Shown: positions 10,848 through 24,713 of the stretch, in pieces
How positions within the stretch are numbered: the stretch's first letter is position 1
How the letters are laid out: the number at the start of each line of letters is the position of its first letter
Source of the DNA: Halorhodospira halophila SL1
GTDB lineage: Bacteria > Pseudomonadota > Gammaproteobacteria > Nitrococcales > Halorhodospiraceae
Length of the DNA stretch: 32,000 bases
Assembly: GCF_000015585.1 (NCBI RefSeq)
Contig: NC_008789.1
Location: 1,380,001 to 1,412,000 of the forward strand
Direction: 5' to 3'
Translations under genes and position numbers: made by a program
The notes under the pieces: model-generated
The model's database searches: none
What the model was told of the DNA's origin: nothing
Seen by the model: only the letters and a program-made list of their open reading frames with translations

Positions 10848-11432
10848 TCAGAAACGTCCAACCAGACCAGCACTTAGCGCATCAATCTCGTAACCTGCCT
10901 CATCGAGGTACTGCATGTACTCGAAGTTCGCGCTAGCGGCATCACCAACATGAATATCTACACCGGCTCCGAATGAAGCTCCGGTATCAGATTGGCTGTA
11001 GCTGAATCCGTTTGCCTCCGCAGTCATCTGCCCGCCCGTTAAGCCCACGATCCCATACAGTGCTAGGGCGTCCCCAACAGGGAGGTGACCACGGACATAA
11101 CCACCGAAGAGGTAATCAAGCTCAACGTCCACATCTACAGAGGTAGCACCTTCCGACACCGTTACCGAATCATCGCCAATGCCAAATCCGGCGCGGCCCT
11201 CTACCGATACGTATTCACTCACATACGTTCCGACACGCCCTACTAACCCTGTAAGGTCGGCATCACCATCAACAGTGATGCCAAGTTGCGGGACGTCATC
11301 CTCGCCATAAGTGGCAGATGCTATTTGGCCCCCCGCATAACTATCCCCCGCAGTTGGCGCTTGTGCCATCACAGCCCCGGAGAGACACAGCGCAGAGATG
11401 CCTACGAGCGTCACAGTCCTTGTTCGATCCAT
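10848..11432 (-). CDS. Outer-membrane beta-barrel (OmpA-TM/OmpW-like porin family) protein
   Basis: Signal peptide ...LSGAVMA/QAP. The body has alternating Gly/aromatic beta-strand-like segments. The C-terminal Phe (LVGRF) is typical of the OMP beta-signal. Visibly lower GC than the flanks. Confidence 0.72.
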   Translation of the reverse strand: MDRTRTVTLVGISALCLSGAVMAQAPTAGDSYAGGQIASATYGEDDVPQLGITVDGDADLTGLVGRVGTYVSEYVSVEGRAGFGIGDDSVTVSEGATSVDVDVELDYLFGGYVRGHLPVGDALALYGIVGLTGGQMTAEANGFSYSQSDTGASFGAGVDIHVGDAASANFEYMQYLDEAGYEIDALSAGLVGRF

Positions 11433-11688
11433 GCTCTCTCACTCCCCTCGATAGCGGCAATGTCAGCCCGGTTAGCATTGAACCCGAAAGATGATGTGAA
11501 TTCAAAAGGGATGTGCCTGTCCCGTCTGGCTCCGGCCACGGTGTGGCCCCGTAGTGACCCAGTCTTTCTACAGAGCACGCGCTCCGTCCAGTCACTCGTA
11601 GACTTCCGGCCTTGGGAACAAGCGTCCACCCCAGGCGCGTAGCCTCGCAACAACTTGGTCGTCCTAGGTTTGACGACACCGCATAAAG

Positions 11689-11704
11689 CTGAATAAAGTT
11701 ACAG
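11689..11704 (+). promoter_or_regulatory. Candidate LexA (SOS) box overlapping the umuDC promoter
   Basis: CTGAATAAAGTTACAG fits CTG-N10-CAG with an AT-rich spacer. It lies 28 bp upstream of the umuD ATG. A TTGACG -35-like hexamer is at 11670-11675, and TAAAGT (-10-like) lies inside the box. Confidence 0.6.
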
Positions 11705-11731
11705 CCCTGTGTCCGTGGAACCGCACCCGTC

Positions 11732-12160
11732 ATGACCGTGACCCACCTGCAGACCTGCGCCAGGGAGCCTGCCGCGCTGCGCCGCCCGCTCTTTCTGGAG
11801 CGCGTTGCCGCCGGCTTCCCCTCCCCGGCTCAGGACTACGTCGACCGGGCCCTCGATCTCAACGAGCTCTGCATCGAGCACCCGGCCGCGACCTACTTCG
11901 TCCGCGCCGCCGGCGAGTCGATGCTTGGCGTCGGCATCCACCCCGGCGACGTCCTGGTGGTGGATCGCGCCCTCGAGGCTCGGCACCGGGACATCGTCAT
12001 CGCCGCCTGGCAGGGCGAGCTTACGGTCAAACGGCTGGAGCTCCGGCCGACGCTGCGCCTGGTCGCCGAGAACGACGCCTTCCCGCCGATCGATATTGCC
12101 GAGCCGGAGATGCTTGAGATCTTCGGGGTGGTTACGTTCGTCATCCACGCCCTGCGCTGA
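11732..12160 (+). CDS. umuD: UmuD, S24 peptidase subunit of translesion DNA polymerase V
   Basis: [13 protein letters not shown] (Ala-Gly cleavage region), AGESM (Ser nucleophile) and LTVKRLE (Lys). The stop overlaps the umuC start (TGATG). Confidence 0.88.
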
Positions 12161-13431
12161 TGCCGGTCTACGCGCTGGTCGACGTGAACAGCTTCTATGC
12201 GAGCGCCGAGCGGCTCTTTCGGCCGGATCTCGTGGGGCGACCGGTGGTGGTGCTGTCCAATAATGACGGCTGCATCGTCGCCCGCTCCGCGGAGGCCAAA
12301 GCGCTGGGCGTGCCCATGGGTGAGCCGTACTTCCGTGTCCGCGACTGCCTGCGGGCCGCGGGCGCGGCGGTGTTCTCGTCGAACTACGCCCTGTACGCGG
12401 ATCTGTCATCGCGGGTCATGCGCACCCTCGAGGCACTCGCCCCCGCGGTGGAGATCTACTCGATCGATGAGGCGTTCCTGGATCTCACCGGGCTCGACAC
12501 ACTGACCGACACCGAACGCTTCGGCCAGGAGGTCCGCGCCCGCATCCGGGGCGATGTCGGGTTGCCGGTATGCGTCGGCATCGGCCCGACCAAGACGTTG
12601 GCCAAGCTCGCCAACCATGCCGCGAAGCAGGATCCCGAACGCCACGGCGTCGCCTGCCTGCGCGATCCGGCAGCGCGGGCCCGGGCGCTGCGGGCCACCC
12701 CGGTGAACGCGGTCTGGGGTGTCGGCCAACGGCTCGCCGATCGCCTGGCTGAGCTCGGCGTTCACACCGCCGAGGATCTCGCCAACTTATCGCCGAGGCG
12801 GATCCGTCAGCACTTCCCCGTGACCCTCGCACGGACGGCGGAGGAGCTGCGGGGCTGCGCCTGCCACGATCTTGAAAGCGAACCGGCACCCCGGCAGCAG
12901 ATCGTCTGCTCGCGTACTTTCGGCACGCCGGTTCGTGACGAGCCGGCGCTTCGCGAGGCCGTCGCGGATTACGCGGTGCGCGCCGCGGAGCGCCTGCGCG
13001 AGACCGGACAGCACGCCGCCGCCCTCTCCGTCTTTCTTCGCACCGACCCGCACCGGACCGCGGAGCCGCAGCACATGCCCACGGCGACGCGGCGGCTGAC
13101 GATTGCAACGGACGACACTCGCGACCTGTTGGCCGTTGCCCTTCGGATCGCCGAGGAGCTCTGGCGCCCCGGCCACGCCTACATCAAGGCCGGCGTGATG
13201 CTCGGGGAACTCCAGGCTCCCGGGATCTCCGGTGATCTCTTCGCCGACGACGCGGCGCGGGCTCGATCGGCGGACCTGATGCAAGCGGTCGATGCCATCA
13301 ACCGTCGCCACGGCCGCGCTGCCGTGACCTACGGCGTCCAACGCCGGGGGCGTGCCGAATGGCGAATGCGCCGCGACTACCTCTCCCCGGCCTACACGAC
13401 GCGGTGGACGGATCTGCCGGTGGTGGGGTGA
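12160..13431 (+). CDS. umuC: UmuC, Y-family translesion DNA polymerase V catalytic subunit
   Basis: [48 protein letters not shown] and SIDEAFLDL are canonical UmuC/Y-family motifs. Translationally coupled to umuD. Confidence 0.9.
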
Positions 13432-13525
13432 GTCGCGATGTGCCCAGTGGAGTGCCGCCCCACTACCCCTGCGAGCGTTTGCCGTGGTACGTGTCCCCTT
13501 ACGGGTTACTGCCAAGGAGGCGCTC

Positions 13526-14254
13526 ATGCTTGTCTACCCGCCGAATGCAGAAACGGGGGTTTATCTGCTGCTCGGGCAGTTACGCCCCTACCTGCCCTTC
13601 GAACTCGCGATCGACTCCTTTGAGATCTGCCCGCATTCAATGGGGTATGCCCATTCCAAGCATCTGGACGCGCTCGGCTATTGGCTCCGTGACGACGAAT
13701 GGGAGCGCATCAGTATCGAATTCAAGCTTCACAGCAGCGGGATGCTCCGGGACCTAACCGCACATCCAGATCTGACCGTCGATCTCCTGGTGTGCTGGCA
13801 GGATGACGTCCCGGGGGAACTGACTCAGAGCGTCGCCTACGTCCTAGCGCTCGATGAGGTTCTGGCAAATGCACCGGAGGAGGAGCGGACCGGCGTTATC
13901 CGGAATCCGAAGGCGAGCGCCCCAAGGGAGCACGCCGCAGCCACTACCGAGGCGATCATTGCCCGCTTTGCGGAGCACAACCGACCGAAGGTCGAACGGC
14001 TGTGCCAAGGCTGGCCACAGTACCGCCCGGGCGCCAGTGAGCTGATCTTTACCCGCGGAACAAGGACGCTGTTTCGGGCCGTATGCTATTCAACGGAGCA
14101 TCTGTACGTGACGGAGTACGTCGCTCGCGAACAGCGCAAGCATCTGGTGGATCGCTTCGGGGGAGACTGGTACCAGGGCGGCGCGATAAAGGTTCCCTTT
14201 GACCGACTGGACGCGCCAGGCGTCGATCACCTATTGAGTGTTCTGGGTCCGTGA
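13526..14254 (+). CDS. Hypothetical protein; N-terminal PD-(D/E)xK-like motif, function unknown
   Basis: ATG at 13526 is preceded by AAGGAGG. The N-terminal half has DALGYW...ERISIEFKL...VDLLVCWQDD, which resembles a restriction-endonuclease-fold D...ExK core. I do not recognise the C-terminal half. The track ORF start at 13352 would overlap umuC. Confidence 0.55.
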   Translation: MLVYPPNAETGVYLLLGQLRPYLPFELAIDSFEICPHSMGYAHSKHLDALGYWLRDDEWERISIEFKLHSSGMLRDLTAHPDLTVDLLVCWQDDVPGELTQSVAYVLALDEVLANAPEEERTGVIRNPKASAPREHAAATTEAIIARFAEHNRPKVERLCQGWPQYRPGASELIFTRGTRTLFRAVCYSTEHLYVTEYVAREQRKHLVDRFGGDWYQGGAIKVPFDRLDAPGVDHLLSVLGP

Positions 14255-14719
14255 GGCGGGGGTGAGCGTTAGTGCCCACGGATGGCGTTATGCACAGCAG
14301 CCCGCTAGGCACACGCCCAAAGGTGGGTGCCCTGGCTGGGCTCCTCCTGGTGCGCGAGAACGCATCCATCGCCCCGCTCCACCTATGGCGAACGGTGATG
14401 GCATGCTCAGCCGACACCCTCGGGTCGTTCTCGGCGAAAACAGCAGGGCCGCCCGGGGTTGACATTGCCGGTCGCGGTAGTCATTGACCGCTCGTTTCTG
14501 CACAAGCTCCCAGCAAACGCCTCGTAACCCACTGACGGATGGAAGGGTAACGATAGGTTGCTGATTTGCCGTTGCTTTAGCACTGGCTACTGGTTATCCA
14601 GTCGACCTCGAATGCCCTCATGGCAAGGCTTCGGTCGACGTTCTCCACACGGTTTTCCACAGGTTTTGTGGAAAGGGGATCTCAGTTCTACCGCCGCGGC
14701 ACGCTCCTCCCGCGCCCAC

Positions 14720-15961
14720 TCACACCTTCACCTGATCGACGATCTCCGCCAGGCGGCTCGTGCCGATCCCGTCGACTTCCTCAAGCTGCTCGATCCGCCG
14801 GATCGGTCTCAGGGCGACGATCGCCTCGGCGCGCTCCGGGCCGATGTGGGGGATCGCCTGGAGTTCTTCGATGGAGGCCGTGTTGAGGTCGATGCGCCCC
14901 GTCGGCTCGTCGCCCTGCCCCGCCCCCGGTGCACCACGAGCCGACCGCGCTGAGGATGGCTTCGAGGCCTCATCCACCGGCCGGGCCGGCTCGATCTGTA
15001 GCTGGGCGTGATCAGCGAAGATCTCCAGCATCTGCTCCTGGAGCACCGTCCGTGGGCCCTGGATCAGGGCCAGGTCATCGGCCTCAAAGAGCAGTGCCGC
15101 CCGCCGGGACCCCTCCAGTTTCTCGGCCGCCACTTCGGCGAGCAGCGCGATCAGGATCCGGTGCGCATCCTCCCTCGGCTGAACGGCGGCGCGGCAATGT
15201 TCAAGTCCCTGGGCCGCCTCGGCGAAGACCTCCGGGGAGCGCGGGAGCGCGACCCATCCCGTCTTCTCGGTGACCCGTCGGTACGTCCGCTGGCCGTCCT
15301 GCAGCGCCTCACCCCGCCCCCAGACGGCCACCGCCAGGGCGAAGGAGGCGCTGAGCCGGTCCGCGTCCCAGCGGTTGATCGCCTGCTCGACAGCCTCGTC
15401 GATCCGCCGGCGCTGTCGGCGCAGCCAGGCATTGCGCCACCACCGCGGCAGGGCGTGCACGTTGTCACCGACCCACTGGCCGAGGGCGATGGCGCCGCGC
15501 AGCAGCCCGCCAATGAGCATCAAGAGCAGCTGCACCGCCCCGACGATGGCAGCGACGACCATGTAGATCAGCTGCAGCTGCGCCGCCTTCTGCCCCCGGA
15601 CCTGGACGCCGAAGGGCTTCGCCGAGGAGCGGTTGGGCTTGAGCCAGTTGAACGAGCCGAGCCGATTGCGCGTGGAGACCGTCGCGCCGCTCTTGGAGAG
15701 GTTCAGCTTGGTTGGCCCCTTCCCGTAGCGACCGCGCAGGATGAACCGTCCGTTCTGCAGGGCCACCTGGGTGTTCTTCGCCGGCGTTACCGAAGCCCGG
15801 ACGCCGCGCCGGGTGTTGGCGGTAAGATCCACGCCCGCCGCCCGGGCCTGGGCGCGCAGCGCCACGCCGCCGGTGCGACTGGCCCGCAGGTACTTGCCGC
15901 GGTGCTCGACGCGCCGCTGCTTGCCGTAAGCGTCCTTCGTGCCGAGATTAAACAGGGCCAT
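14720..15961 (-). CDS. Membrane protein with DUF4236-like basic N-terminus, one TM helix and C-terminal tandem helix-hairpin-helix (ComEA-like) DNA-binding domain
   Basis: GPTKLNLSKSGATVSTRN resembles the DUF4236 signature. The TM segment is LIYMVVAAIVGAVQLLLMLIGGLL. The C-terminus reads IDLNTASIEELQAIPHIGPERAEAIV...LEEVDGIGTSRLAEIV (two HhH). I chose start MALFNLG (15961), which is preceded by GAGGAG. Confidence 0.68.
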   Translation of the reverse strand: MALFNLGTKDAYGKQRRVEHRGKYLRASRTGGVALRAQARAAGVDLTANTRRGVRASVTPAKNTQVALQNGRFILRGRYGKGPTKLNLSKSGATVSTRNRLGSFNWLKPNRSSAKPFGVQVRGQKAAQLQLIYMVVAAIVGAVQLLLMLIGGLLRGAIALGQWVGDNVHALPRWWRNAWLRRQRRRIDEAVEQAINRWDADRLSASFALAVAVWGRGEALQDGQRTYRRVTEKTGWVALPRSPEVFAEAAQGLEHCRAAVQPREDAHRILIALLAEVAAEKLEGSRRAALLFEADDLALIQGPRTVLQEQMLEIFADHAQLQIEPARPVDEASKPSSARSARGAPGAGQGDEPTGRIDLNTASIEELQAIPHIGPERAEAIVALRPIRRIEQLEEVDGIGTSRLAEIVDQVKV

Positions 15962-16144
15962 CACGCTCCTCACCGGTGTGCCGTCATCCGCTATAGCGGC
16001 GGGCATGCCCTTCTACACCACCCCCGCGACACCATCTGTCGTCGCATTCGGAGACCATCCTTCCCGAACTGCGGGCTTCCCCGGACCTCTTTCAATCCCG
16101 CATGATGTGCCGTAGAAATACCTCGATCGCACACGGACCGAGCG

Positions 16145-17146
16145 ATGACCGACAGCCTTCTGCGTCAGTGGACGATGCTCCAGCACATCCCCCGCCAGCC
16201 GCGGGGGATCAGCGCCGGCCAACTCCACGACCGGTTGCGCTGCGAGGGCTACGCGGTCTCGCTGCGCACCGTCCAGCGCGATCTCAACACCCTCTCCAGT
16301 GAATTCGCGCTGGTCTGCGAAAGCGTGGGCAACGAGCAGCACTGGTCGTGGCTCGCCGATGCGCCGGTGCTCGACGTCCCCGGTCTCTCGCCGGCGGCGG
16401 CGCTGGCCTTCCGGCTTGCCGAGCTCCACCTCGGCGCTCTGCTGGCTCCGGAGGCGCTACGGGCCCTGCGGCCGCACTTCGAGGCGGCCAAGCGGGTCCT
16501 CAACCAAGGCGGCTCGCAGCTCTCCCACTGGCCGAATCGTGTCCGCGTCCTGACCCGTTCCCAGCCCCTACTCGCCCCGGACGTCGACCCGGGGGTCTAC
16601 GACCGGATCTGCCAGGGACTCCTTGAGGGCCGGCAGCTCTACGTCCACTACCGCCCGCGTAGCCGGGGCAGCGAGCTGCGAAGCTACCGGATGCATCCGC
16701 TCGGGCTGGTTATGCGCGATCCGGTCAGCTACGTGGTGGCGACGCTGCGCGACTACACCGATGTCCGGCAGATGGCGCTGCACCGCTTCGAGGCGGTGGA
16801 GCTGCTCGACGACCCGATTGCCCCGCCGGCGGGCTTCGACCTGGATGCCTACATCCACGAGCAGCGGGCCTTCGATCTGCCCGACACCAACGAACCCGTC
16901 GCCCTGCACCTGCGGATCAGCGCCGGCGTGGCCGAGCATCTTACGGAGGCGCCGCTGTCCGAGGATCAACGGATCGAAGCCTGCGACGACGGCTGGTGGA
17001 GCCTGCGCGCCACGGTGCCCCTGACCGCACAACTGCGCTGGTGGCTGCTCGGCTTCGGGCAGGCGGTGCAGGTCCTCGAGCCGCAAGCGTTGCGAGACGA
17101 GCTCGCCGCCGAACTTCGGGCTGCGGCCGACTTGTACGACGAATAA
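16145..17146 (+). CDS. WYL-domain transcriptional regulator (HTH-WYL-WCX architecture, BrxR/CapW/PafBC-like)
   Basis: N-terminal wHTH (LLRQWTMLQHIPRQPRGISAGQLHDRLRCEGYAVSLRTVQRDLNTL). Central WYL-type segment (LYVHYRPRSRGSELRSYRMHPLGLVMRDPVSYVVATLRDYTDVRQMALHRFEAVELL). Confidence 0.85.
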   Translation: MTDSLLRQWTMLQHIPRQPRGISAGQLHDRLRCEGYAVSLRTVQRDLNTLSSEFALVCESVGNEQHWSWLADAPVLDVPGLSPAAALAFRLAELHLGALLAPEALRALRPHFEAAKRVLNQGGSQLSHWPNRVRVLTRSQPLLAPDVDPGVYDRICQGLLEGRQLYVHYRPRSRGSELRSYRMHPLGLVMRDPVSYVVATLRDYTDVRQMALHRFEAVELLDDPIAPPAGFDLDAYIHEQRAFDLPDTNEPVALHLRISAGVAEHLTEAPLSEDQRIEACDDGWWSLRATVPLTAQLRWWLLGFGQAVQVLEPQALRDELAAELRAAADLYDE

Positions 17147-17293
17147 AGAACCATAACCGGCCGCCAACCGCGACATGAGATGTCGCAGCCGTTTGTTGTC
17201 ATTACATCATCCCGGGCAGGATCCGATCGCGGATCCGGGCATGGAAGCCACCCGGGGCCCTTTCCAAAGAAACCGGGGGAGCGCTCTGCGATC

Positions 17294-18520
17294 ATGCCCC
17301 GCCTGTCCAAATCCCGCTTCATCGCCGGCTGGCAGTGCCCGCTTCGGCTCTGGTATGCGGTCCACGAGCCCTGGCGAGCCACGCCGCCTGATCCCCAGTT
17401 GCAGGCGATCTTCGACCAGGGCCACCGACTCGGGCAATTGGCTCAGCAGCGCTATCCATCCGGGGTGCTCGTCGAAGCGGATTACCGGCACACGCGTCAG
17501 GCCCTCGAGCAAACACAGGCGCTGATGGCCGACCCGGGGCGTACCGGCGATCTTTGAAGCCGCTCTGGAGCACGAACAGGTCCTGACCCGAGTGGACGCG
17601 CTCGTTCGAAACGGTGACGGGTGGGACCTGGTCGAGGTCAAGGGCGCCACGCGTGCCAAGGAGGTTTTCCAGCTCGACGTGGCGATCCAGTATTGGATCC
17701 TCACCGGTGCCGGCATCCCGGTACGCGATGCCGGGCTGCTGTTGATCGACCGTGACTACGTCTACCCGGGCGGCGCGCACGACCCCCAGGAGTTCTTTCG
17801 GTTCGAGCCGCTGACCAGAACCTGCGAGCAGTGGCGTGAGTGGATCGAGACGCAGGTCGTCTCCTTCCAGGAGGTTGCCGCCCGTACAACACCACCCCAG
17901 ATCGAAATCGGGCAGCAGTGCTTTAGCCCTTACCCCTGCCCGTTCTACAACCACTGCTCTGCTGACAGGGAGTGGCCCGAGCACCCGATCGAGGAGCTAC
18001 CGTATCTGGCCGGCGAGCGTTACCAGGGCCTCCTCGAGCAGGGTGTCACAACCATCGACGCCATCCCCGACGATTACCCGCTTACCGGCGCTCAGAAGCG
18101 GGTCCGAGACGCCGTTGCCAAGGGGCACCCCTGGACCGATCCCGACCTGGGTGAAGCCGTTCAGGGCGTGGATTAGCCTCTCTTCTTCCTGGATTTCGAG
18201 ACCGCGCAGCCGGCCTTACCCCGTTACCCCGGAACCTCGCCGTTCCAGGCCTTGCCGTTCCAGTTTTCCTGCCATATCCAACGAGCCCCCGGGGTCGCCC
18301 CGGAGCACACGGACTTTCTGGCTACCGCCGATACCGATCCCCGGCGCCCGCTTGCCGAGGCACTGCTCAACGCACTCGGTGACCGCGGATCGATCGTCGT
18401 TTACTCCAGCTTTGAGCGGCGGGTCCTCGGCGAACTCGCCGATGCGCTACCGGATCTCGCTGAGCCCTTAGCCGCCCTTCAGGACCGGCTGTGGGATCTG
18501 CTACGGGTCGTGCGAGACTA
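17294..18520 (+). pseudogene. DUF2779-family protein (Cas4/RecB-like Fe-S PD-(D/E)xK nuclease plus DEDD-like exonuclease domain), disrupted
   Basis: MPRLSKSRFIAGWQCPLRLWY, DLVEVKGAT, CFSPYPCPFYNHC (the Cas4-type Cys cluster together with the N-terminal Cys) and FFLDFET...PFQFSCH. There are three lesions. One is a +1 frameshift in a G run near 17535. One is an in-frame TAG at 18174-18176. The third is a 3' truncation by the IS30 end at 18521. Confidence 0.8.
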
Positions 18521-19314
18521 GCTGATCTCAAGAATCAAGCGCAACAGTCTTCGAGAAGGCCTGAAGCTCTTCAGTCATGGCCTCCTCGGGCGTTCTGAAG
18601 TCCAGTGCCTTGCGTGGCCGCTGGTTGAGAAGCCGCGCAATATCATTGAGTTGGGTCTGGCTCGGCTCGCTGAGATCGGCGCCCTTGGGCAGGTACTGGC
18701 GCAGCAGGCCGTTGGTGTTCTCGTTGCTGCCACGCTGCCAGGGCGCGTGCGCATCGGCGAACCAGATCGACAGATTCAACCGCCGGGCAAGCCGCTCATG
18801 GCAGGCCATCTCGCTGCCCCGGTCGTAGTCAGACTCTGACGCAGGATTGCCGGCAGGCGCCTCATCTGCCGATGGAAGCCCTCCAGGGCGGCCTCGGCGG
18901 TACCGTCGTGCATCTTGCTCAGTACGACGTAGCGGGTCTTGCGCTCAACCAGCGTGCCGACCGAGGAGCGGTTGTAGGCGCCCTTGATCAGGTCGCCCTC
19001 CCAGTGGCCGGGCATCAGCCGCTGCTCGATCTCTTCAGGCCGATAGGCGATGCGCAGGTGCTCCGGGGCGATCGAGCCGCCTCGCGCGGCCGTGCGCCGC
19101 CGTTGCCCGCGCTGCGGTTTCTGGCGGCGAAGCGCCCGGATCAGCTCCTGCTTGAGCGAGCCCTTGGGATGGGCATAGATCGCCGCGTAGATGGTCTCGT
19201 GGCTGACGCGAGCCTCAGGATCCTCGGGGTTCATACGCGCCAGTCTGCCGGCGATCTGCTCGGGAGACCACTGCCAGTAGCACAGCCGGTCCAGGACGTA
19301 GCGATACAGCCATC
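18521..19314 (-). mobile_element. IS30-family element, second copy, degraded (1-bp deletion and 5' truncation of the transposase)
   Basis: Near-identical to 9266-10060, with a few SNPs. One G is missing near 18826 (GTCGTAGTCAG versus GTCGTAGGTCAG), which splits the ORF into 18528-18809 and 18776-19345. It is cut at 19314 by the IS3 left end. Confidence 0.88.
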
Positions 19315-19370
19315 TGGTCTTGCCCACCAACCGTGGACACCTCAATAGCTACCATTCGACGAGGTGATCC

Positions 19371-19685
19371 ATGACGAGGCAAGCTACTCAGATGAGCAAG
19401 ACCAAGGCGAAGTCCAAGCGCACACGCTACACCCAGGCCTATCGAGACGAGGCGCTGGCGTTGGCCGAGCGCGTCGGCGTCAGCGAGGCGGCCCAGCAAC
19501 TCGGGATCCAGCCGGCGCAGATCTACCAGTGGCGCACCAAGGCCCGGACCGAAGCGGACCGCTCGCAGCGAGAGCGGGAGTTGGCCGAGGAGAATGCCCG
19601 GCTCAAGCGTCAGCTCTCGGAAGCGAATGAGGAGCTGTCGATCACAAAAAAGGCCGCGGCGTACTTCGCGAAAAACCAGAAGTGA
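19371..19685 (+). CDS. IS3-family transposase OrfA (HTH)
   Basis: 104 aa with an HTH (VSEAAQQLGIQPAQIYQWR) and a leucine-zipper-like tail. Contains the A6G frameshift site. Confidence 0.88.
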   Translation: MTRQATQMSKTKAKSKRTRYTQAYRDEALALAERVGVSEAAQQLGIQPAQIYQWRTKARTEADRSQRERELAEENARLKRQLSEANEELSITKKAAAYFAKNQK

Positions 19686-20548
19686 AGTACGCGTTCATCG
19701 ATCAGCAGCGTCACGAGCACCGGGTCCAGGCGATGTGCCGCGTCCTTGGCGTTGCTCGCAGCGGCTTCTACGCATGGTGTCGGAACAAAGCTGTCCGCGC
19801 CGCACGGGAAGAGCGCCAGCAGGCCTTTGATGGGCAGGTGCAAGAGGCCTTCGAAGACTCCAGGCAACGCTCTGGAGCGCCTCGACTGACGCGAGAGCTG
19901 GACGGGCAAGGCGTGTCGGCCAATCGCAAGACCGTGGCCCGGAGCATGCGCCGTCAGGGCCTCCGGGCACGCACGTCACGCCGGTTTAAGGTGACGACGA
20001 ACTCGGCTCACAGCCTGCCGGTCGCGCCAAACCACTTGGCCCAGCACTTTGAAGCGGAGCAGCGGAACCAGAAATGGACTGGCGACATCACGTATTTGGC
20101 GACCGGCGAAAGATGGCTCTATCTCGCGGTCGTCCTGGATCTTTGTGGCCGCAAAGTGATCGGTTGGGCCATGCGCGAGCAGATGAGCGCTGAACTGGCC
20201 TGTGAGGCGCTTCAGATGGCCCTGGAACGGCGAGGCTACCCCACGGGGGTCATCGTCCATACGGATCGAGGCAGCCAGTACTGCTCCCGTGCGTACCGCA
20301 GGCTCATCAGCGACTACGGGCTGATCAGCAGCATGAGCGCGAAGGGCAGCTGCTACGACAATGCCTGCAACGAGAGCTTTTTCCGTTCCCTGAAGGTCGA
20401 GGCCCTGCATGGCGAGAAATTCCCCACGCGGGCCTCGATGCGTGAGGCCGTCTTCGAATACATTGAGGGCTACTACAATCGCCGGCGTCTTCATAGCACG
20501 CTCGGGTACCTATCCCCGGACGACTACGAGGCCCGGCTTAATAGCTAA
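19682..20548 (+). CDS. IS3-family transposase OrfB (DDE/rve integrase core); normally expressed as an OrfAB fusion by -1 frameshifting
   Basis: WTGDITYL...HTDRGSQYCS...CYDNACNESFF...YYNRRRLHSTLGYLSP are the canonical IS3 DDE motifs. Confidence 0.9.
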   Translation: MKYAFIDQQRHEHRVQAMCRVLGVARSGFYAWCRNKAVRAAREERQQAFDGQVQEAFEDSRQRSGAPRLTRELDGQGVSANRKTVARSMRRQGLRARTSRRFKVTTNSAHSLPVAPNHLAQHFEAEQRNQKWTGDITYLATGERWLYLAVVLDLCGRKVIGWAMREQMSAELACEALQMALERRGYPTGVIVHTDRGSQYCSRAYRRLISDYGLISSMSAKGSCYDNACNESFFRSLKVEALHGEKFPTRASMREAVFEYIEGYYNRRRLHSTLGYLSPDDYEARLNS

Positions 20549-20578
20549 CACCGTGTCCACGTTCGCTGGGTAAGACCA

Positions 20579-21316
20579 CCCGGCAGAGCGCTGCCAGCTC
20601 GCCGAAAGCACCTGCTCAACGGCGGGTTTGAGCCCCGGTGAGCGTCACAGATGACCAGCTCGACCCCGCACCCGTCAAACCCCGACCGATGACCTCGCGG
20701 AGGAACTGCTTCGAGAACCCCTCCGTCTCGTTCGACCCCAACGACAGGCCCAGTGCCTCCCAGCGCCCTACGGTGTTGACGCCGACCGCGATCAGGCAGG
20801 CCTTAGAGATCACCCGGCCGTGCTCGCGGACCTTGATGTAGGTGGCATCGAGCAAAAGAAATGGCCAGCGCCCCTCGCTCGGTCGGCTCAGGAACGCCCC
20901 CACCCCCTCGTCGATGAACTGGCACAGCCGCGAGACCTGCGAATTTGAGATCCCCTCCATGCAGACGGCCTTGACGAGCTCGTCGACGGAGCGGGTCGAC
21001 ACCCCCTGGATATAGGCCTCCTGAACAACCCCGACGAGCGCCTGCTACATTGCCGCCGCGGCTCCAGGAACGAGCGCAGATAGTTGGCGTGGCGCAGACG
21101 CGGCACCTTTAGCTCCATGGAGCCGACCCGTCTGTCTTAGCGCCGGCTACGGTAGCCGTTGCGATAGTCCGTGCGCTAATGGCGCTGATCCCCCCACATC
21201 GAGTCCGCCTTGGCCTCCATGAGCTGCTGGACGATTTCATGGACCAGCATGCGCAGAAAGTCGACGTCGCCACCCTTCTCAGCCATCTCCAGCAGTGCGA
21301 ACCTGTTATCAGCCAT
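20579..21316 (-). pseudogene. IS256-family transposase, degraded and 3'-truncated by IS3 copy 1
   Basis: My minus-strand translation gives MADNRFALLEMAEKGGDVDFLRMLVHEIVQQLMEAKADSMWGDQRH*, then YRNGYRSRR*DRRVGSMELKVPRLRHANYLRSFLEPRR. After a frameshift it reads STRSVDELVKAVCMEGISNSQVSRLCQFIDE...LLLDATYIKVREHGRVIS. These are typical IS256 motifs interrupted by stops and frameshifts. Confidence 0.8.
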
Positions 21317-21709
21317 CGCGGACCTCCATTCGATTGGGTTTCTTCGTTTACTGGCCCGAATCCTAACGGGGTCGGCGGTGGCCCTTCACCTCCCTGAAGC
21401 CCACCCCACTACAGCTGCCCTGCTGTAGCTTTTACGCATTCCTGGGGACTCTACTGCAAGACCAGATTTCCGTCGCTAACTAATCGCCGAAGTGTCTACC
21501 TTCGAGTTATCTTCGTGACTAGGGAGTTCCGCGTATACTGCGCCCATTCTGCGACAACGTGCCCGACTAGCAGAATATGCCTCCCCTTCACGCACGACCT
21601 ATACTTGCCATCGATAGTCTGCGCTAAGGTGCCGGCAGGATAGGCTCGGATAACTTTTCACACCCGTAGACCTCCCAAATAACCATCAGCCCTCTAGCTG
21701 GGTGATCGC

Positions 21710-23038
21710 ATGAGGTTCACTATGGTTGATAACAAAACCCCTCAGATTAGTGTACAGAAAATCACGCTAAGGATCTTTATGGGGGCGTGCTTTATCCTGA
21801 TGTGTATAGCCTGTAACTCATCGAGCGACAACGATGAAACGGAGCACGAGAGTGATACGCCGGAGGTAACACATGAATTAACTCTCGAACCCAGTGAATC
21901 CAGCCTTAAAGCTGAGTGGCTTGACTCTGAGGATGTGACCTACAATCTGATTTACGGCCAGGACGAGGACATTTTAACCGATCCAGCTAACTACGCCACC
22001 TACGATGGGAGCATGGATCAAGACGTCAGCTCTCCACATGAAATCAAGGGACTGGAAAAGGAATCGACTTACCATGTTGTTCTTGAAGTTGACGACGAGC
22101 GTGGCACCCGTTATCCAGCGAAAGAATCAACTACGCTGAATTCGGAAAAAATTTTAAGCTCGAGCGATGTGTTATGGATATTTGAAAAGCATGATGGAGT
22201 CGTACGTAGCCTCGCAGCGTATGATAGCACCGTTTACAGCAGCGGCAACGATGAGACGGTCCGCGCCATAGACGCAAAAAGTGGGGACGAGATATGGGTT
22301 TTTGAGGAGCATTTTGACTTTATCTACAGCGTTGAAAACTATGAGGGCACAGTCTACAGCGCTGCCCGAGGCGGTGCATCAAGCATAAAAGATGGTTATG
22401 ATAGCACCGTCCGCGCAATTGATTCTGGAACAGGTGAAGAGAAATGGGTGTTTGACGGTAACAGATCTTTTTATGACGTTGCCGCAGCCGACAACTCCGT
22501 ATATGCTGCAAAATCAAGCGGGAGCGTCCTTCAGATAGACGCTGAAAAAGGATCAAGGAAACAGGTTATCGGACAACATGATCGTCAAGCCAGAGGCGTT
22601 GCGGTAGCGGGCGGGACTGTATTTAGCGCCGGTCATGATACAACTATACGCGCTTTCGACGTAGAACAAGAAGAAGAGAAATGGGTCTACGAGGGGCCAG
22701 AAAGCCCCCACAAAAACTTCTTGAGTGTTGCAGCAACCAAGGAAGCAGTTTACGCGGGCAGCGACACCTCTATAAGGGCGCTTGACGCTGATACAGGCGA
22801 GAAGCAGTGGGCTTATGAGGACATACAGTCCGGTGGGTTTTACACCGTTAAAGAACTTGGCGACGTGGTATACGGCGGAAGCCTTGACGGAAAAGTTCGG
22901 GCAATCGATTCGAAAACGGGTGAAAAGAAGTGGGTCTTTGCAGAACATGAAGACCACGTGCGGGCTGTCGTGCCAACCGAACATGCTATATATAGTGGCG
23001 ATAGCGGCGGGACAATCTTAGCTATTGATCCCCCTTGA
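21710..23038 (+). CDS. Lipoprotein with FN3-like segment and PQQ-like/BamB-like beta-propeller repeats
   Basis: Lipobox-like FILMCIAC followed by an acidic linker. The motif (D/G)xT(V/I)RA(I/L)Dxx(T/S)GE(E/K)KWV(F/Y) recurs six to seven times about 40 aa apart. AT-richer than the surroundings. Exact start uncertain. Confidence 0.78.
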   Translation: MRFTMVDNKTPQISVQKITLRIFMGACFILMCIACNSSSDNDETEHESDTPEVTHELTLEPSESSLKAEWLDSEDVTYNLIYGQDEDILTDPANYATYDGSMDQDVSSPHEIKGLEKESTYHVVLEVDDERGTRYPAKESTTLNSEKILSSSDVLWIFEKHDGVVRSLAAYDSTVYSSGNDETVRAIDAKSGDEIWVFEEHFDFIYSVENYEGTVYSAARGGASSIKDGYDSTVRAIDSGTGEEKWVFDGNRSFYDVAAADNSVYAAKSSGSVLQIDAEKGSRKQVIGQHDRQARGVAVAGGTVFSAGHDTTIRAFDVEQEEEKWVYEGPESPHKNFLSVAATKEAVYAGSDTSIRALDADTGEKQWAYEDIQSGGFYTVKELGDVVYGGSLDGKVRAIDSKTGEKKWVFAEHEDHVRAVVPTEHAIYSGDSGGTILAIDPP

Positions 23039-23189
23039 AAAACTACTAGGCTGCTGGAAAAGTCGGTTTTGTCATGTCATAAAGGTTGTCGTTGATCGCG
23101 TAATGGTCCAGCGCACCGGTTTGGCCTGGAAACTGGTCTTGCCCACCAACCGTGGACACCTCAATAGCTACCATTCGACGAGGTGATCC

Positions 23190-23504
23190 ATGACGAGGCA
23201 AGCTATTCAGATGAGCAAGACCAAGACGAAATCCAAGCGCACACGCTACAGCCCGGCCTATCGAGACGAGGCGCTGGCGTTGGCCGAGCGCGTCGGCGTC
23301 AGCGAGGCGGCCCAGCAGCTGGGGCTCCAACCGCCGCAGATCTACCAGTGGCGCACCAAGGCCCGGAACGAAGCGGACCGCTCGCAGCGAGAGCGGGAGT
23401 TGGCCGAGGAGAATGCCCGGCTCAAGCGTCAGCTCTCGGAAGCGAATGAGGAGCTGTCGATCACAAAAAAGGCCGCGGCGTACTTCGCGAAAAACCAGAA
23501 GTGA
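23190..23504 (+). CDS. IS3-family transposase OrfA (copy 2)
   Basis: 104 aa, differing in a few residues from copy 1. The A6G slippery site is at 23465-23471. Confidence 0.85.
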   Translation: MTRQAIQMSKTKTKSKRTRYSPAYRDEALALAERVGVSEAAQQLGLQPPQIYQWRTKARNEADRSQRERELAEENARLKRQLSEANEELSITKKAAAYFAKNQK

Positions 23505-24369
23505 AGTACGCGTTCATCGATCAGCAGCGTCACGAGCACCGGATCCAGGCGATGTGCCGCGTCCTTGGCGTCGCTCGCAGCGGCTTCTACGCATGGTGCC
23601 GGAACAAGGCGGCCCGCGCCGCACGGGAAGAACGCCAGCAGGCCTTTGATGGGCAGGTGCAAGAGGCCTTCGAAGACTCCAGGCAACGCTCTGGAGCGCC
23701 TCGACTGACGCGAGAGCTGGACGGGCAAGGCGTGTCGGCCAATCGCAAAACCGTGGCCCGGAGCATGCGCCGTCAGGGCCTCCGGGCACGCACGTCACGC
23801 CGGTTTAAGGTGACGACGAACTCGGCTCACAGCCTGCCGGTCGCGCCAAACCACTTGGCCCAGCACTTTGAAGCCGAGCAGCGGAACCAGAAATGGACTG
23901 GCGACATCACGTATTTGGCGACCGGCGAAGGATGGCTCTATCTCGCGGTCGTCCTGGATCTTTGTGGCCGCAAAGTGATCGGTTGGGCCATATGCGCGAG
24001 CAGATGAGCGCTGAACTGGCCTGTGAGGCGCTTCAGATGGCCCTGGAACGGCGAGGCTACCCTACGGGTGTCATCGTCCATACGGATCGTGGCAGCCAGT
24101 ACTGCTCCCGTGCGTACCGCAGGCTCATCAGCGACTACGGGCTGATCAGCAGCATGAGCGCGAAGGGCAGCTGCTACGACAATGCCTGCAACGAGAGCTT
24201 TTTCCGTTCCCTGAAGGTCGAGGCCCTGCATGGCGAGAAATTCCCCACGCGGGCCTCGATGCGTGAGGCCGTCTTCGAATACATTGAGGGCTACTACAAT
24301 CGCCGGCGTCTTCATAGCACGCTCGGGTACCTATCCCCGGACGACTACGAGGCCCGGCTTAATAGCTAA
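23501..24369 (+). pseudogene. IS3-family transposase OrfB (copy 2), frameshifted
   Basis: Split into track ORFs 23501-24007 and 23893-24369 by the 2-bp insertion near 23990. Confidence 0.85.
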
Positions 24370-24399
24370 CACCGTGTCCACGTTCGCTGGGTAAGACCA

Positions 24400-24553: not shown

Positions 24554-24713
24554 AACGGGCGCTCAGAGAGCACTTTCGGCGGCGCCGCCGAGGGACACAT
24601 CACAATGATGGAATCCGTGAAGACCCGAGGTTGTCGGTACACAGGTTCATTTCATTGGATGCTGCCCCGCCGACGGCCAGGCAGCGTCCGGAGAACCTAT
24701 AAGATGAATTAGG

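What the first reader, a model, noticed from the sequence alone, without database searches (positions are those of the whole stretch)
16145..18520. WYL regulator plus Cas4-like DUF2779 nuclease/exonuclease cassette, inactivated by three independent lesions
Seen in sequence: a full-length HTH-WYL regulator is followed 147 bp later by a DUF2779-type gene. That gene carries the Cas4/RecB-type four-Cys cluster (C in GWQCPL plus CFSPYPCPFYNHC), an EVK nuclease motif and a DEDD-like FLDFET exonuclease motif. The gene has an extra G in a GGGG run near 17535 (removing one G restores ...ADPGVPAIFEAALEHE...). It also has an in-frame TAG at 18174-18176 just before PLFFLDFET, and it is cut at 18521 by IS30. 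Established knowledge: WYL regulators (BrxR, CapW, PafBC, DriD) sense ssDNA or phage cues and gate defence or damage genes. Inference: this is a regulator-effector pair that has been selected against or has decayed while the regulator stayed intact. The poly-G shift alone could be a sequencing error, but the nonsense codon and the IS truncation cannot.
Basis: partly seen in the sequence, partly recalled or inferred. Interest (0 to 1): 0.55.

Follow-up and report, generated by a model that had tools for sequence, protein, structure and literature searches.

The report
Dead WYL-gated DUF2779 dual-nuclease module
An intact DNA-damage-type (WYL) regulator sits next to the wreck of the two-headed nuclease gene it once controlled; the wreck is ordinary gene decay in a transposon-riddled island, but the shared operator sequence gives a testable clue to an uncharacterised nuclease family.

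Summary
An intact 333-aa wHTH-WYL-WCX regulator (16145-17146) is followed 147 bp later by a DUF2779 gene (17294-18520). That gene carries a +1 G frameshift (GGGG 17536-17539) and a TAG (18174-18176). It has also lost about 88 C-terminal codons at an IS30 end (18521). A second assembly (H. halophila 9630 draft) shows all three lesions. New here: the regulator is DriD/DdaA-like, not BrxR/CapW-like. The published DriD/DdaA operator core CGACA-N5-TGTCG occurs exactly twice in 32 kb (0.03 expected). One copy lies about 100 bp before the WYL gene and one 108 bp before the DUF2779 gene. The same box is strongly enriched in 21 related proteobacterial DUF2779 loci (21 hits against 1.1 expected), mostly in the operon's promoter region and often with no WYL gene nearby. 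It is absent from 149 loci of other phyla and from 4 extra plasmid loci. The pair is therefore a real regulator-target module. It was probably an ssDNA-induced Cas4-like/DEDDy nuclease, and it died recently inside a degenerate 19-kb tRNA-Val island. Whether it served defence or repair is unresolved. The locus itself is ordinary; the regulon link is a modest new lead.

The parts
16027..16041 (.). DriD/DdaA-type operator box 1 (CGACACCATCTGTCG). It lies in the divergent intergenic region, about 100 bp before the WYL ATG and about 20 bp before the ATG of the HHH gene on the minus strand.
   Evidence: Exact match to the literature core CGACA-N5-TGTCG. There are only 2 matches in 32 kb against 0.03 expected. 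Orthologous WYL genes carry the same box upstream.
16145..17146 (+). Intact wHTH-WYL-WCX transcription factor, 333 aa, DriD/DdaA-like subfamily (recognition helix SLRTVQRDL).
   Evidence: Pfam WYL and WCX. The PADLOC WYL model covers residues 6-315. The nearest solved relatives are DriD and PafC. 54 of 55 conserved columns are kept.
17171..17185 (.). DriD/DdaA-type operator box 2 (CGACATGAGATGTCG; the full 17-mer GCGACATGAGATGTCGC is a perfect palindrome). It lies 24 nt after the WYL stop and 108 nt before the DUF2779 ATG.
   Evidence: Equivalent boxes lie 22-136 bp (one at 333 bp) before DUF2779 operons in 11 related loci.
17294..18520 (+). DUF2779 pseudogene. It encoded an N-terminal Cas4/MGME1-like 4-Cys PD-(D/E)XK nuclease and a C-terminal DEDDy RNase-H-like exonuclease. 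About 408 of about 495 codons remain.
   Evidence: PF11074 at 1.1e-35. 54-60% identity to full-length homologues. An AlphaFold model of homologue P0002 has pLDDT 96, and Foldseek matches Cas4, MGME1 and RecE. 53 of 53 family-conserved columns are intact.
17536..17539 (+). Lesion 1: +1 frameshift in a GGGG run. GGG restores the reading frame.
   Evidence: The draft assembly is identical here.
18174..18176 (+). Lesion 2: in-frame TAG at a column that is W in the closest relatives and Y in most of the family.
   Evidence: The draft assembly is identical here.
18521..19314 (-). Lesion 3: an IS30-family fragment whose terminus abuts codon about 409. About 88 codons are lost, including the H and Y-C-x-x-D (ExoIII) positions. 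This IS30 copy carries a 1-nt deletion and is itself cut at 19314.
   Evidence: 99.4% identical to the full IS30 copy at 9266-10060. The intact copy hits HTH_38 and rve. 21 conserved columns are lost. The missing 3' end is not elsewhere in the window.
19314..20578 (+). IS3-family element inserted into the IS30 fragment. A second copy lies at 23133-24399.
   Evidence: 97.9% self-match. orfB hits rve and HTH_21.
14720..16006 (-). Divergent 428-aa gene with a C-terminal ComEA-like helix-hairpin-helix. It shares the box-1 intergenic region and may be co-regulated.
   Evidence: HHH_3. Homologues lie near DUF2779 in L089 and L085 only.
8562..27894 (.). Host element: a degenerate genomic island of about 19.3 kb at tRNA-Val (8532-8606). 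It is bounded by 46-nt direct repeats (8562-8607 and 27849-27894). Its P4-type integrase is cut by IS30 at 9266. Cargo includes umuDC (11732-13431).
   Evidence: tRNA. Repeats. Arm-DNA-bind_3 at 7e-28. UmuD and UmuC.

Best explanation
This is the remnant of a regulator-target module carried as cargo on a decaying tRNA-Val island of Halorhodospira halophila.

**Regulator.** It is a dimeric wHTH-WYL-WCX transcription factor of the DriD/DdaA kind. It recognises the palindrome CGACA-N5-TGTCG. One copy lies in its own promoter region, which implies autoregulation (inferred). A second copy lies 108 bp before the neighbouring gene.

**Target.** The neighbouring gene encoded a DUF2779 enzyme of about 495 aa. 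It fused a Cas4/MGME1-like Fe-S PD-(D/E)XK nuclease to a DEDDy 3'-5' exonuclease.

**Inferred mechanism.** Single-stranded DNA from damage, or from an invading or replicating element, binds the WYL domain and switches the regulator. The nuclease is then induced and degrades or resects DNA ends in both polarities. I lean towards an accessory role on mobile islands, either defence-like or damage-triggered, rather than core repair.

**Shown.** The target gene is now dead through a +1 frameshift, a nonsense codon, and an IS30-associated deletion of the last ~88 codons with the ExoIII catalytic motif. Inactivation is recent, because every family-conserved residue that remains is unchanged. The regulator is intact.
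For: **Lesions and their confirmation:**

**Regulator type:**
- The nearest solved relatives are DriD (7u02, 8tp8) and PafC, at E about 1e-8. No BrxR or CapW chain reaches E<=0.01.
- It lacks the RWHVR motif of the CapW/BrxR repressors (PMC11662680, compared with the sequence).
- Its recognition helix LRTVQRD keeps the two base-contacting arginines described for DriD (PMC10853764).

**Operator:**
- The literature sites are DriD ATACGACAGTTACTGTCGTAT and DdaA CGACAATATGTGTCG.
- The window holds exactly 2 matches to CGACA-N5-TGTCG against 0.03 expected. Both lie in the two relevant intergenic regions.
- The same box lies upstream of WYL orthologues in L001, L092, L177, L179 and L180.
- The 12-mer at <=1 mismatch gives 21 hits against 1.14 expected in 21 related DUF2779 loci, 5 against 0.15 in WYL-orthologue loci, and 2 against 4.8 in 149 loci from other phyla.
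- 13 of the 21 hits fall within 350 bp upstream of the DUF2779 operon (binomial 8e-15).

**Linkage:** WYL lies directly upstream in L001, L002, L092, L108, L149 and L185, and directly downstream in L174 and L176.

**Enzyme:**
- Catalytic and Cys residues are invariant.
- Cas4, MGME1 and RecE fold matches have probability 1.0.
- The family is assigned to the DEDD clade in the literature (PMC3985635; PMC13621843).

**Recency:** 53 of 53 conserved columns are intact.

**Island context:**
Against: - There is no experimental binding or expression data.
- The closest WYL orthologues (76-83% identity) neighbour other genes: a ~590-aa protein with AAA and DUF2201 genes, or PDDEXK_4 with type I-C cas genes.
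- Only 14 of 165 sampled DUF2779 loci have any WYL gene in the flanks.
- Four further alpha- and beta-proteobacterial plasmid loci, fetched as a validation set, have no box at the DUF2779 promoter.
- Many boxed DUF2779 operons have no adjacent WYL gene, so a trans-acting paralogue could be the real regulator.
- The ssDNA-contact residues of DriD are only partly conserved. The Y192 and R204 equivalents are present; Y168, S172, K202 and W206 are not.
- Activator versus repressor cannot be told from sequence.
- A 6-bp palindrome could in principle act as an RNA hairpin. Conservation of its sequence across classes argues against that.
- No promoter consensus was detected.
Confidence: 0.6

Rival explanations
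1. Defence-island reading. The WYL protein is a BrxR/CapW-style repressor of a phage-defence effector. DUF2779, with its small partners, is an anti-phage nuclease system that this strain lost.
For: - The closest DUF2779 homologues sit beside BREX (L081), Dnd with HNH and Mrr (L083), GmrSD (L170, L172), and SNF2 with PLD / PDC-M27A (L089, L174).
- Partner genes are PDDEXK_4 or PDC-S26-like.
- One WYL orthologue lies next to type I-C cas genes, with a box between PDDEXK_4 and cas3.
- The distribution is patchy and island- or plasmid-borne.
Against: - There is no RWHVR motif and no detectable similarity to BrxR or CapW structures.
- The operator is of the DriD/DdaA type, not the CapW type.
- No PADLOC model covers DUF2779; there are only weak Cas4 hits.
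- Phage genomes give no hit.
- In Terriglobia the gene keeps stable synteny.
- The family is quasi-essential in JCVI-syn3.0.
- This rival differs from the best explanation mainly in regulator class and biological role, not in wiring.
Confidence: 0.25
2. Core DNA-repair reading. DUF2779 is a double-strand-break or adduct-processing nuclease of the DriD/DdaA damage regulon, in the manner of recJ or MrfB. Here it is simply a redundant island-borne copy that decayed.
For: - The box is that of the DriD/DdaA regulators.
- umuDC lies 3 kb upstream.
- A Y-family polymerase lies directly upstream of DUF2779 in L036 and L037.
- An SOS-response-associated peptidase lies nearby in L175.
- The DEDDh half resembles MrfB, and the Mycoplasma homologue is quasi-essential.
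- Synteny is conserved in Terriglobia.
Against: - In the clade closest to the window the gene lies in variable islands among defence genes, with variable partners.
- No LexA box occurs in the window.
- The box is missing outside one proteobacterial clade.
Confidence: 0.3
3. Coincidental neighbours. The WYL protein regulates itself and/or the divergent HHH gene, and the DUF2779 gene merely landed beside it.
For: The closest WYL orthologues are not next to DUF2779. Most DUF2779 loci lack a WYL gene.
Against: - A second perfect box lies 108 bp before DUF2779, and there are no others in 32 kb.
- Boxes recur at DUF2779 operon promoters elsewhere.
- Adjacency recurs in at least 8 loci from several classes.
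Confidence: 0.08
4. Artefact. The gene is intact and the lesions are sequencing or assembly errors.
For: The frameshift is in a homopolymer. The window's IS30 copy differs from the draft by one G.
Against: The GGGG run, TAG and IS junction are identical in an independent 220x draft assembly. The IS30 terminus is defined by a second copy. The 3' end is absent from 32 kb.
Confidence: 0.02

Closest known systems
DriD (Caulobacter crescentus) and DdaA (Acinetobacter): ssDNA-sensing wHTH-WYL-WCX activators of non-SOS DNA-damage regulons
   Same: Same domain order. They are the best hits among solved structures. The operator core is the same (CGAC-N7-GTCG; DdaA's site is CGACA-N5-TGTCG). A box lies before the regulator's own gene. 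Known targets include nucleases (recJ, bapE).
   Different: Identity is only about 25% and limited to WYL-WCX. The gene is carried on a mobile island, not at a core locus. It has an adjacent cis target. ssDNA-contact residues are only partly conserved. Activator function is not shown. No DUF2779 gene has been reported in either regulon, as far as the searched papers show.
BrxR/CapW family: WYL repressors of BREX, CBASS and other defence islands
   Same: Same wHTH-WYL-WCX architecture. Modular association with variable island genes. Orthologues lie next to CRISPR-Cas and other defence-type genes.
   Different: No RWHVR signature. No sequence hit to BrxR or CapW structures. The operator is of a different type.
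MMSYN1_0389 / PF11074 (DUF2779), described computationally as Cas4-like plus DEDDh (PMC13621843; PMC3985635, family F.17)
   Same: Same two-domain architecture and the same catalytic D...E-x-K and D-x-E ... Y-x3-D positions.
   Different: The proteobacterial members keep all four Fe-S cysteines, whereas the Mycoplasma protein has two. They are about 495 aa, without the long insert. The copy here is a pseudogene.
Cas4 / MGME1 / RecE-type PD-(D/E)XK exonucleases
   Same: The N-terminal fold matches (Foldseek probability 1.0), as do the 4-Cys cluster and the D/EVK/QxxxY motifs.
   Different: No cas genes or CRISPR array in the window. The domain is fused to a DEDDy exonuclease. TM-scores are modest (0.43-0.55 on the target).
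TM0106 / COG2251 RecB-like nucleases (TIGR03491; PF13482)
   Same: A sister architecture (Cas4-like plus RNase_H_2). This family is also found divergent from a WYL gene on the Sphingobium plasmid (L185).
   Different: The score is below the NCBIfam cutoff (42.6 against 97.5 bits), so it is a distinct family.

Membership tests
wHTH-WYL-WCX transcription factors | WYL domain followed by a WCX dimerisation domain | tested here: met
   PF13280 at 3.9e-13 (residues 151-219) and PF25583 at 5.3e-21 (residues 251-328).
wHTH-WYL-WCX transcription factors | [quoted passage not shown] | tested here: met
   No Pfam HTH hit at E<=0.01. However, the PADLOC WYL model aligns from residue 6. Residues 23-52 resemble Fur-type wHTHs (weak). 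The helix SLRTVQRDL aligns with HTH_11-positive homologues.
DriD/DdaA-type (ssDNA-activated) WYL regulators | CGAC-N7-GTCG palindrome in the promoter of its own gene | tested here: met
   CGACACCATCTGTCG at 16027-16041, about 100 bp before the ATG. PMC10853764 reports this box in 68 of 69 DriD homologues.
DriD/DdaA-type (ssDNA-activated) WYL regulators | Base-contacting arginines of the recognition helix (DriD R37 and R41) | tested here: inconclusive
   The pattern R-T-x-Q-R (R42, R46) fits DriD's R37-T38-x-E40-R41 by position. No direct alignment of the HTH to DriD was obtained.
DriD/DdaA-type (ssDNA-activated) WYL regulators | ssDNA-binding pocket residues and binding of ssDNA | tested here: inconclusive
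   In the alignment to 7u02/8tp8 the Y192 and R204 equivalents are conserved. Y168, S172, K202 and W206 are not. Binding itself cannot be tested here.
DriD/DdaA-type (ssDNA-activated) WYL regulators | Acts as a transcription activator on DNA damage | not testable with these tools
   No promoter consensus was found. Box-to-ATG distances of 22-136 bp do not settle the question.
CapW/BrxR-type WYL repressors | RWHVR motif in the WYL domain | tested here: not met
   The equivalent strand reads PVSYVVATL. The motif is as defined in PMC11662680.
CapW/BrxR-type WYL repressors | Sequence similarity to BrxR/CapW and adjacency to a recognised defence system | tested here: not met
   No BrxR or CapW chain at E<=0.01. 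The window proteins that were scanned against PADLOC (WYL, HHH, orf300, 28456-30906, 24714-25700) give no complete defence system, and the intact DUF2779 homologues P0007/P0008 give only weak Cas4 hits.
DUF2779 (PF11074) | Match to the family model above its cutoff | tested here: met
   123 bits against a cutoff of 23.3, covering profile positions 1-112 of 126 and cut off by the truncation.
Cas4/RecB-like PD-(D/E)XK nucleases | D...E-x-K catalytic triad plus QxxxY | tested here: met
   D101, E114, K116, Q132 and Y are invariant in alignments of 13 and 46 sequences, and all are present in the window copy.
Cas4/RecB-like PD-(D/E)XK nucleases | Four cysteines (one N-terminal, three C-terminal) for an Fe-S cluster | tested here: met
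   C15 is nearly invariant; C209, C215 and C221 are invariant. Cluster binding itself was not tested.
Cas4/RecB-like PD-(D/E)XK nucleases | Fold | tested here: met
   The AlphaFold model has pLDDT 96.3. Foldseek matches 7mi4, 8d3l, 4r5q and 4ic1 (Cas4), MGME1 and RecE at probability 1.0 and E from 1e-5 to 6e-3.
CRISPR-associated Cas4 | Location in a cas operon or next to a CRISPR array | tested here: not met
   No array and no cas genes found in the window. It is at most a 'solo' Cas4-like domain.
DEDD(h/y) 3'-5' exonucleases | ExoI D-x-E and ExoIII (H/Y)-x3-4-D acidic residues | tested here: not met
   ExoI (D300, E302) is present. ExoIII (Y-C-x-x-D) and the conserved H are conserved in homologues but deleted from the window copy. 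The family as a whole meets the feature; this copy does not.
DEDD(h/y) 3'-5' exonucleases | RNase-H-like fold of the C-terminal half | tested here: inconclusive
   Whole-protein Foldseek gives only weak RNase HI and 3'hExo matches (E 0.1-0.2). Some homologues also hit PF13482. The clade assignment comes from PMC3985635 and PMC13621843.
IS30 family | HTH_38 plus DDE (rve) transposase and defined termini | tested here: met
   The intact copy 9273-10304 hits HTH_38 and rve. Both copies share the terminus GCTGATCTCAAGAATCAAGCGCAACAG.

The most novel reading that the evidence does not exclude
DUF2779 dual nucleases may be the effectors of an undescribed system. They occur with interchangeable small partners: PDDEXK_4/PDC-S26-like proteins, a Zn-ribbon protein of about 284 aa, or an IetA-like AAA ATPase. 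The system would be mobile, ssDNA-triggered, and wired to DriD/DdaA-type WYL regulators in cis or in trans. Such a nuclease would be switched on by phage or plasmid replication intermediates or by heavy DNA damage. It would then act as a defence or BapE-like suicide function in Proteobacteria.
Probability: 0.3. Interest if true: 0.7.

Novelty: new member of a known kind. Interest (0 to 1): 0.4.

Why it matters
The locus itself is a routine pseudogene in an IS-ridden island. Its value is as a pointer. PF11074/DUF2779 is a widespread two-nuclease family with no experimental function; in these searches it was found in many bacterial phyla, on 31 plasmids, and as a quasi-essential gene in JCVI-syn3.0. 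Finding the experimentally defined DriD/DdaA operator in front of the pseudogene, and in front of DUF2779 operons in related Proteobacteria, yields a concrete and cheap prediction: these nucleases are induced by ssDNA or DNA damage through a WYL regulator. It also indicates that DriD/DdaA-type regulators, so far studied as chromosomal damage-response activators, travel on islands. There they appear to control defence-island genes such as PDDEXK_4/cas3 and GmrSD-like pairs. That would blur the activator/repressor and repair/defence divide within the WYL family.

Tried and rejected
- **Missing 3' end.** I searched the window for the missing DUF2779 3' end with six homologues and their last 95 residues. 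Nothing scored better than E about 0.2. This is therefore not a simple insertion.
- **Partner genes.** I looked in the window for the partner genes seen elsewhere (EAK-250, Zn-284, the 319-aa family, ~590-aa/AAA/DUF2201, PDDEXK_4). None is present.
- **HHH gene as a general partner.** The divergent HHH gene has homologues near DUF2779 only in L089 and L085.
- **Promoter and terminator scans.** The scans of 15950-17350 were uninformative. The generic inverted-repeat scan missed the operator.
- **LexA box.** CTGT-N8-ACAG gives no match in the window.
- **Solved structures.** The profile of DUF2779 homologues finds no solved structure by sequence. The N-terminal HTH alone does not align to DriD.
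- **PADLOC and NCBIfam.** Neither has a DUF2779-specific defence model. There are only weak Cas4 hits and a sub-threshold TM0106 hit.
- **Phage genomes.** No homologue.
- **Box validation.** On four extra plasmid loci (Azospirillum, Croceicoccus pI, Paraburkholderia, Sphingobium), no box lies at the promoter. The association is clade-limited, not pan-proteobacterial.
- **Literature.** No paper in the library links DUF2779/PF11074 with WYL, DriD or defence. I could not find out what CCNA_02375, a DriD target, encodes.
- **Phase variation.** I rejected phase variation at the G run, because 4 G is too short.
- **Stop-codon readthrough.** I rejected programmed readthrough of the TAG, because there is no supporting feature and two other lesions exist.


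Full report
**1. Observation**

The + strand carries a 333-aa ORF at 16145-17146 with Pfam WYL and WCX domains. After 147 bp, a gene starts at ATG 17294. It reads MPRLSKSRFIAGWQCPL... and runs into a stop at 17555-17557. Removing one G from the GGGG run at 17536-17539 joins it to the next frame. The repaired 408-residue product scores 1.1e-35 against PF11074/DUF2779. It aligns end to end, at 54-60% identity, with 486-518-aa proteins from Halorhodospira halochloris, Natronospira, Aquisalimonas, Wenzhouxiangella and many metagenomes.

- The alignment crosses the frameshift without a gap (VPAIFEAALEHEQVLTRVD).
- The TAG at 18174-18176 falls on a column that is W in the closest relatives and Y in most of the family.
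- The alignment ends at ...LLRVVRD (18520). The homologues continue for about 88 residues, which include a conserved H and the Y-C-x-x-D motif.

The sequence from 18521 to 19314 is 99.4% identical to 9266-10060. That stretch is the end of a complete IS30-family element (HTH_38 plus rve transposase), and its flank differs. So 18521 is a true IS terminus. The missing 3' end is not elsewhere in the window. The IS30 fragment is itself cut at 19314 by an IS3-family element, which is followed by an IS256-family fragment.

**2. The lesions are real**

The exact WYL protein is encoded on contig NRRO01000026.1 of GCA_016583685.1. This is Halorhodospira halophila strain 9630, a 45-contig draft at 220x. 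That 4,331-bp contig is identical to window 14968-19297 apart from one extra G inside the IS30. It has the same GGGG run, the same TAG and the same junction. The protein cluster's longest contig is 2,678,452 bp, which is the size listed for the H. halophila SL1 chromosome (table read). The window is therefore probably SL1, and the draft is an independent sequencing of a near-identical strain.

Among 161 other family members, 53 columns are at least 95% conserved and covered by the pseudogene, and it matches all 53. The truncation removes 21 columns that are at least 90% conserved. The decay is therefore recent. The regulator matches 54 of 55 conserved columns. With only two point lesions, an untouched 1-kb neighbour is not statistically remarkable (my estimate, about 0.3).

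**3. What the dead gene encoded**

Invariant residues are D101, E114-V-K116, Q132, and C209, C215 and C221 (C15 is nearly invariant). Further along come D-F-E (300-302 in the window copy) and, in intact members, H and Y-C-x-x-D.

An AlphaFold2 model of homologue P0002 has mean pLDDT 96.3. Foldseek matches its N-terminal half to Cas4 (7mi4, 8d3l, 4r5q, 4ic1), MGME1 and RecE at probability 1.0. The C-terminal half gives only weak RNase-H-like matches.

Published computational work agrees. One paper places PF11074 in the DEDD exonuclease clade with a DUF83-type PD-(D/E)XK partner domain (PMC3985635). Another describes the quasi-essential JCVI-syn3.0 member as Cas4-like plus DEDDh/y, with MrfB as its best match (PMC13621843).

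No experimental function was found in the library. PADLOC has no model for the family. Phage genomes carry no homologue, and 31 plasmids do.

**4. Is the WYL gene a partner? Gene-order evidence**

An iterated HMM search was run over 165 non-redundant DUF2779 loci (genome and metagenome scans). WYL genes were found in the flanks of 14 loci.
- Five have a WYL gene directly upstream on the same strand: L001, L002, L092, L108 and L149.
- Annotated plasmids add two more forms. Rhodoferax and Diaphorobacter carry ATPase-DUF2779-WYL operons. Sphingobium carries a truncated WYL-DUF2779 pair, plus a second WYL gene divergent from a TM0106 nuclease gene.
- The WYL-linked DUF2779 proteins are scattered among unlinked nearest relatives, so the pairing has been assembled repeatedly.

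Other partners recur:
- A family of about 250 aa with an ...EAK... motif lies adjacent in 10 of the clustered loci (plus L172). It has a weak PDC-S26 hit.
- PDDEXK_4 proteins.
- A Cys-rich protein of about 284 aa.
- A 319-aa family.
- An IetA-like AAA ATPase.

The closest DUF2779 relatives lie among BREX, Dnd/HNH/Mrr, GmrSD and SNF2-PLD/PDC-M27A genes.

Conversely, the closest relatives of the window's WYL protein (83%, 77% and 76% identity) are not next to DUF2779. Their neighbours are a ~590-aa protein with AAA and DUF2201 genes, or PDDEXK_4 with type I-C cas genes. None of these partners is in the window.

**5. Cis-element evidence (the main new result)**

I compared the upstream regions of the window's WYL gene and its orthologues. 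They share the palindrome GCGACA-N5-TGTCGC, and it also appears in the WYL-DUF2779 spacer.

This is the operator already defined experimentally for DriD and DdaA:
- DriD's consensus is ATACGAC(X)7GTCGTAT, and its crystallised site is ATACGACAGTTACTGTCGTAT (PMC10853764).
- Acinetobacter DdaA's site is CGACAATATGTGTCG, about 160 bp upstream of aciT (PMC13010146).

Testing that literature core in the window gives exactly two matches, against 0.03 expected, with none of 100 shuffles reaching two.
- The first is at 16027-16041, about 100 bp before the WYL ATG and 20 bp before the divergent HHH gene.
- The second is at 17171-17185, 108 bp before the DUF2779 ATG.

Across fetched loci, the 12-mer at no more than one mismatch behaves as follows:

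| Set of loci | Observed | Expected |
|---|---|---|
| 21 proteobacterial DUF2779 loci closest to the window's gene | 21 (11 exact) | 1.14 (0.04 exact) |
| 4 WYL-orthologue loci | 5 | 0.15 |
| 149 loci from other phyla | 2 | 4.8 |

Thirteen of the 21 hits lie within 350 bp upstream of the first gene of the DUF2779-containing operon (binomial 8e-15). The distances are 22-136 bp, with one at 333 bp. This includes loci with no WYL gene nearby: L083, L085, L089, L090, L091, L172 and L175. The 8-base core alone adds L081, L005 and L040.

Further boxes lie before other island genes. Examples are the region between PDDEXK_4 and cas3 in H. halochloris 9851, a Zn-ribbon/GmrSD-like pair in L170, and the ~600-aa gene in L180.

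The box-associated WYL proteins share a subfamily signature: a 5-residue insert before the helix (L/R)R(T/S)(V/I)QR(D/Q)L.

A validation set of four more distant plasmid loci showed no box at the promoter. The association is therefore clade-limited.

**6. Which kind of WYL regulator**

- By sequence, the nearest solved structures are DriD (7u02, 7tzv, 8tp8 and others) and PafC. BrxR and CapW do not reach E 0.01.
- The CapW/BrxR signature RWHVR is absent, and CapW's operator is unrelated (PMC11662680).
- The ssDNA-contact residues of DriD are only partly conserved. ssDNA sensing is thus inferred from family behaviour. The papers read show ssDNA binding for DriD and CapW, and the PafBC paper's title and abstract report it for PafBC; it is not shown for this protein.

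**7. Setting**

The core genes recC and gltX end at about 8.5 kb. tRNA-Val lies at 8532-8606. Its last 45 nt plus one base are repeated at 27849-27894, which bounds an island of about 19.3 kb. The island's integrase retains only its Arm-DNA-binding domain, because IS30 cuts it at 9266.

Cargo includes an OMP gene, umuDC (11732-13431), an unassigned 300-aa ORF, the HHH gene, the WYL/DUF2779 pair, IS debris, a low-GC beta-propeller gene and IS66 genes. There is no CRISPR array and no LexA box.

**8. Interpretation**

The pair is a genuine regulator-target module. The target is a recently killed pseudogene, and the setting is a decaying, immobilised island. The most likely original behaviour is induction of a bipolar DNA-end nuclease under WYL control. 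The trigger would be ssDNA bound to the regulator.

The evidence splits on biological role.
- Defence-like or accessory role: island context and PDC-like partners.
- Repair role: DriD/DdaA wiring, umuDC and Y-family polymerase neighbours, stable synteny in Terriglobia, and quasi-essentiality in Mycoplasma.

I lean slightly towards an accessory, island-borne role and state both.

Nothing here is categorically new. WYL regulators with modular targets are known, and DUF2779's domain make-up has been described. What is new is the operator link between the two.

Noticed in passing
window 8532-8607 and 27849-27894; 8885-9265: There is a genomic island of about 19.3 kb at tRNA-Val, bounded by a 46-nt direct repeat of the tRNA 3' end. 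Its P4-type integrase retains only the Arm-DNA-binding domain, because IS30 is inserted at 9266 and no integrase remainder follows the IS.
   Followed up: yes
window 28456-30906 (+), just outside the right island repeat; 31613-31918: An 816-aa protein fuses a Schlafen-group-3/DUF2075-type helicase (PADLOC hits to PDC-S41, Nhi and AbiO) to a C-terminal S24 (LexA/UmuD-like) peptidase. It is followed by a fragment 87% identical to UmuC residues 174-275. It may be a self-cleaving, damage-gated helicase.
   Followed up: partly
window 18828 (IS30 fragment 18521-19314), compared with 9266-10060 and L086: The truncated IS30 copy lacks one G that is present in the full copy and in the draft assembly. 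This frameshifts its transposase, so the element that cut the nuclease gene is itself decayed. It is also cut by an IS3-family element (19314-20578, with a twin at 23133-24399 at 97.9% identity).
   Followed up: yes
L083 7260-8000, L085 7149-7991, L172 3926-4747, L003 3026-3775, L092 6494-7273 and others: An unannotated family of about 250 aa (motif ...LILIEAK/LVEAK..., weak PDC-S26 hit) lies immediately next to DUF2779, often overlapping it, in 10 of the clustered loci (plus L172) from several phyla. A Cys-rich protein of about 284 aa joins it in L083 and L172, in a shuffled gene order.
   Followed up: partly
L178 8223-8239; L170 3934-3950; L180 5600-5616; L083 10406-10422: DriD/DdaA-type boxes also precede other island genes. 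They lie between PDDEXK_4 and cas3 (type I-C) in H. halochloris 9851, before a Zn-ribbon plus GmrSD-like pair, before a ~600-aa unknown gene, and before a small gene upstream of a putative metallopeptidase (my reading of an HEAGH motif) and AAA gene cluster.
   Followed up: partly
L177 and L180/L181: The closest WYL orthologues (76-83% identity) are always flanked by a divergent trio: a ~590-aa unknown protein, a MoxR-like AAA ATPase and a DUF2201/VWA protein. This trio has no PADLOC assignment and may be another WYL-controlled module.
   Followed up: no
L085/L178 and L170/L177: The same core genes border different cargo in different genomes. Pyruvate carboxylase is one such border gene, and DUF3006 with an MBL/HHH_3 gene is another. 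The cargo is DUF2779 modules in some genomes and WYL with CRISPR-Cas or WYL with the AAA trio in others. These look like island integration hotspots.
   Followed up: no
L036 and L037, 4916-5914: In two Dehalococcoidia chromosomes a Y-family polymerase gene (about 30% identical to the window's UmuC) lies directly upstream of DUF2779.
   Followed up: no
L185 6450-8662: On a Sphingobium plasmid a second WYL gene is divergent from a TM0106-family RecB-like nuclease gene, the sister architecture of DUF2779. The WYL gene next to DUF2779 in that locus lacks its HTH (172 aa).
   Followed up: no
window 14720-16006 (-): A 428-aa protein has a hydrophobic segment that looks like a transmembrane helix (by eye, not tested) and a C-terminal ComEA-like HhH domain. 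It shares the box-1 intergenic region with the WYL gene. Homologues lie near DUF2779 in L089 (in a NYN-containing operon, divergent from a boxed DUF2779) and in L085.
   Followed up: partly
window 21710-23038: A PQQ/BamB-like beta-propeller gene has about 50% GC in a genome of about 68% GC. It sits between IS fragments and looks like a separate foreign acquisition inside the island.
   Followed up: no
L092 3734-5004: The WYL gene upstream of DUF2779 in this metagenome contig is split into two overlapping ORFs. This could be another decaying copy or an assembly error.
   Followed up: no
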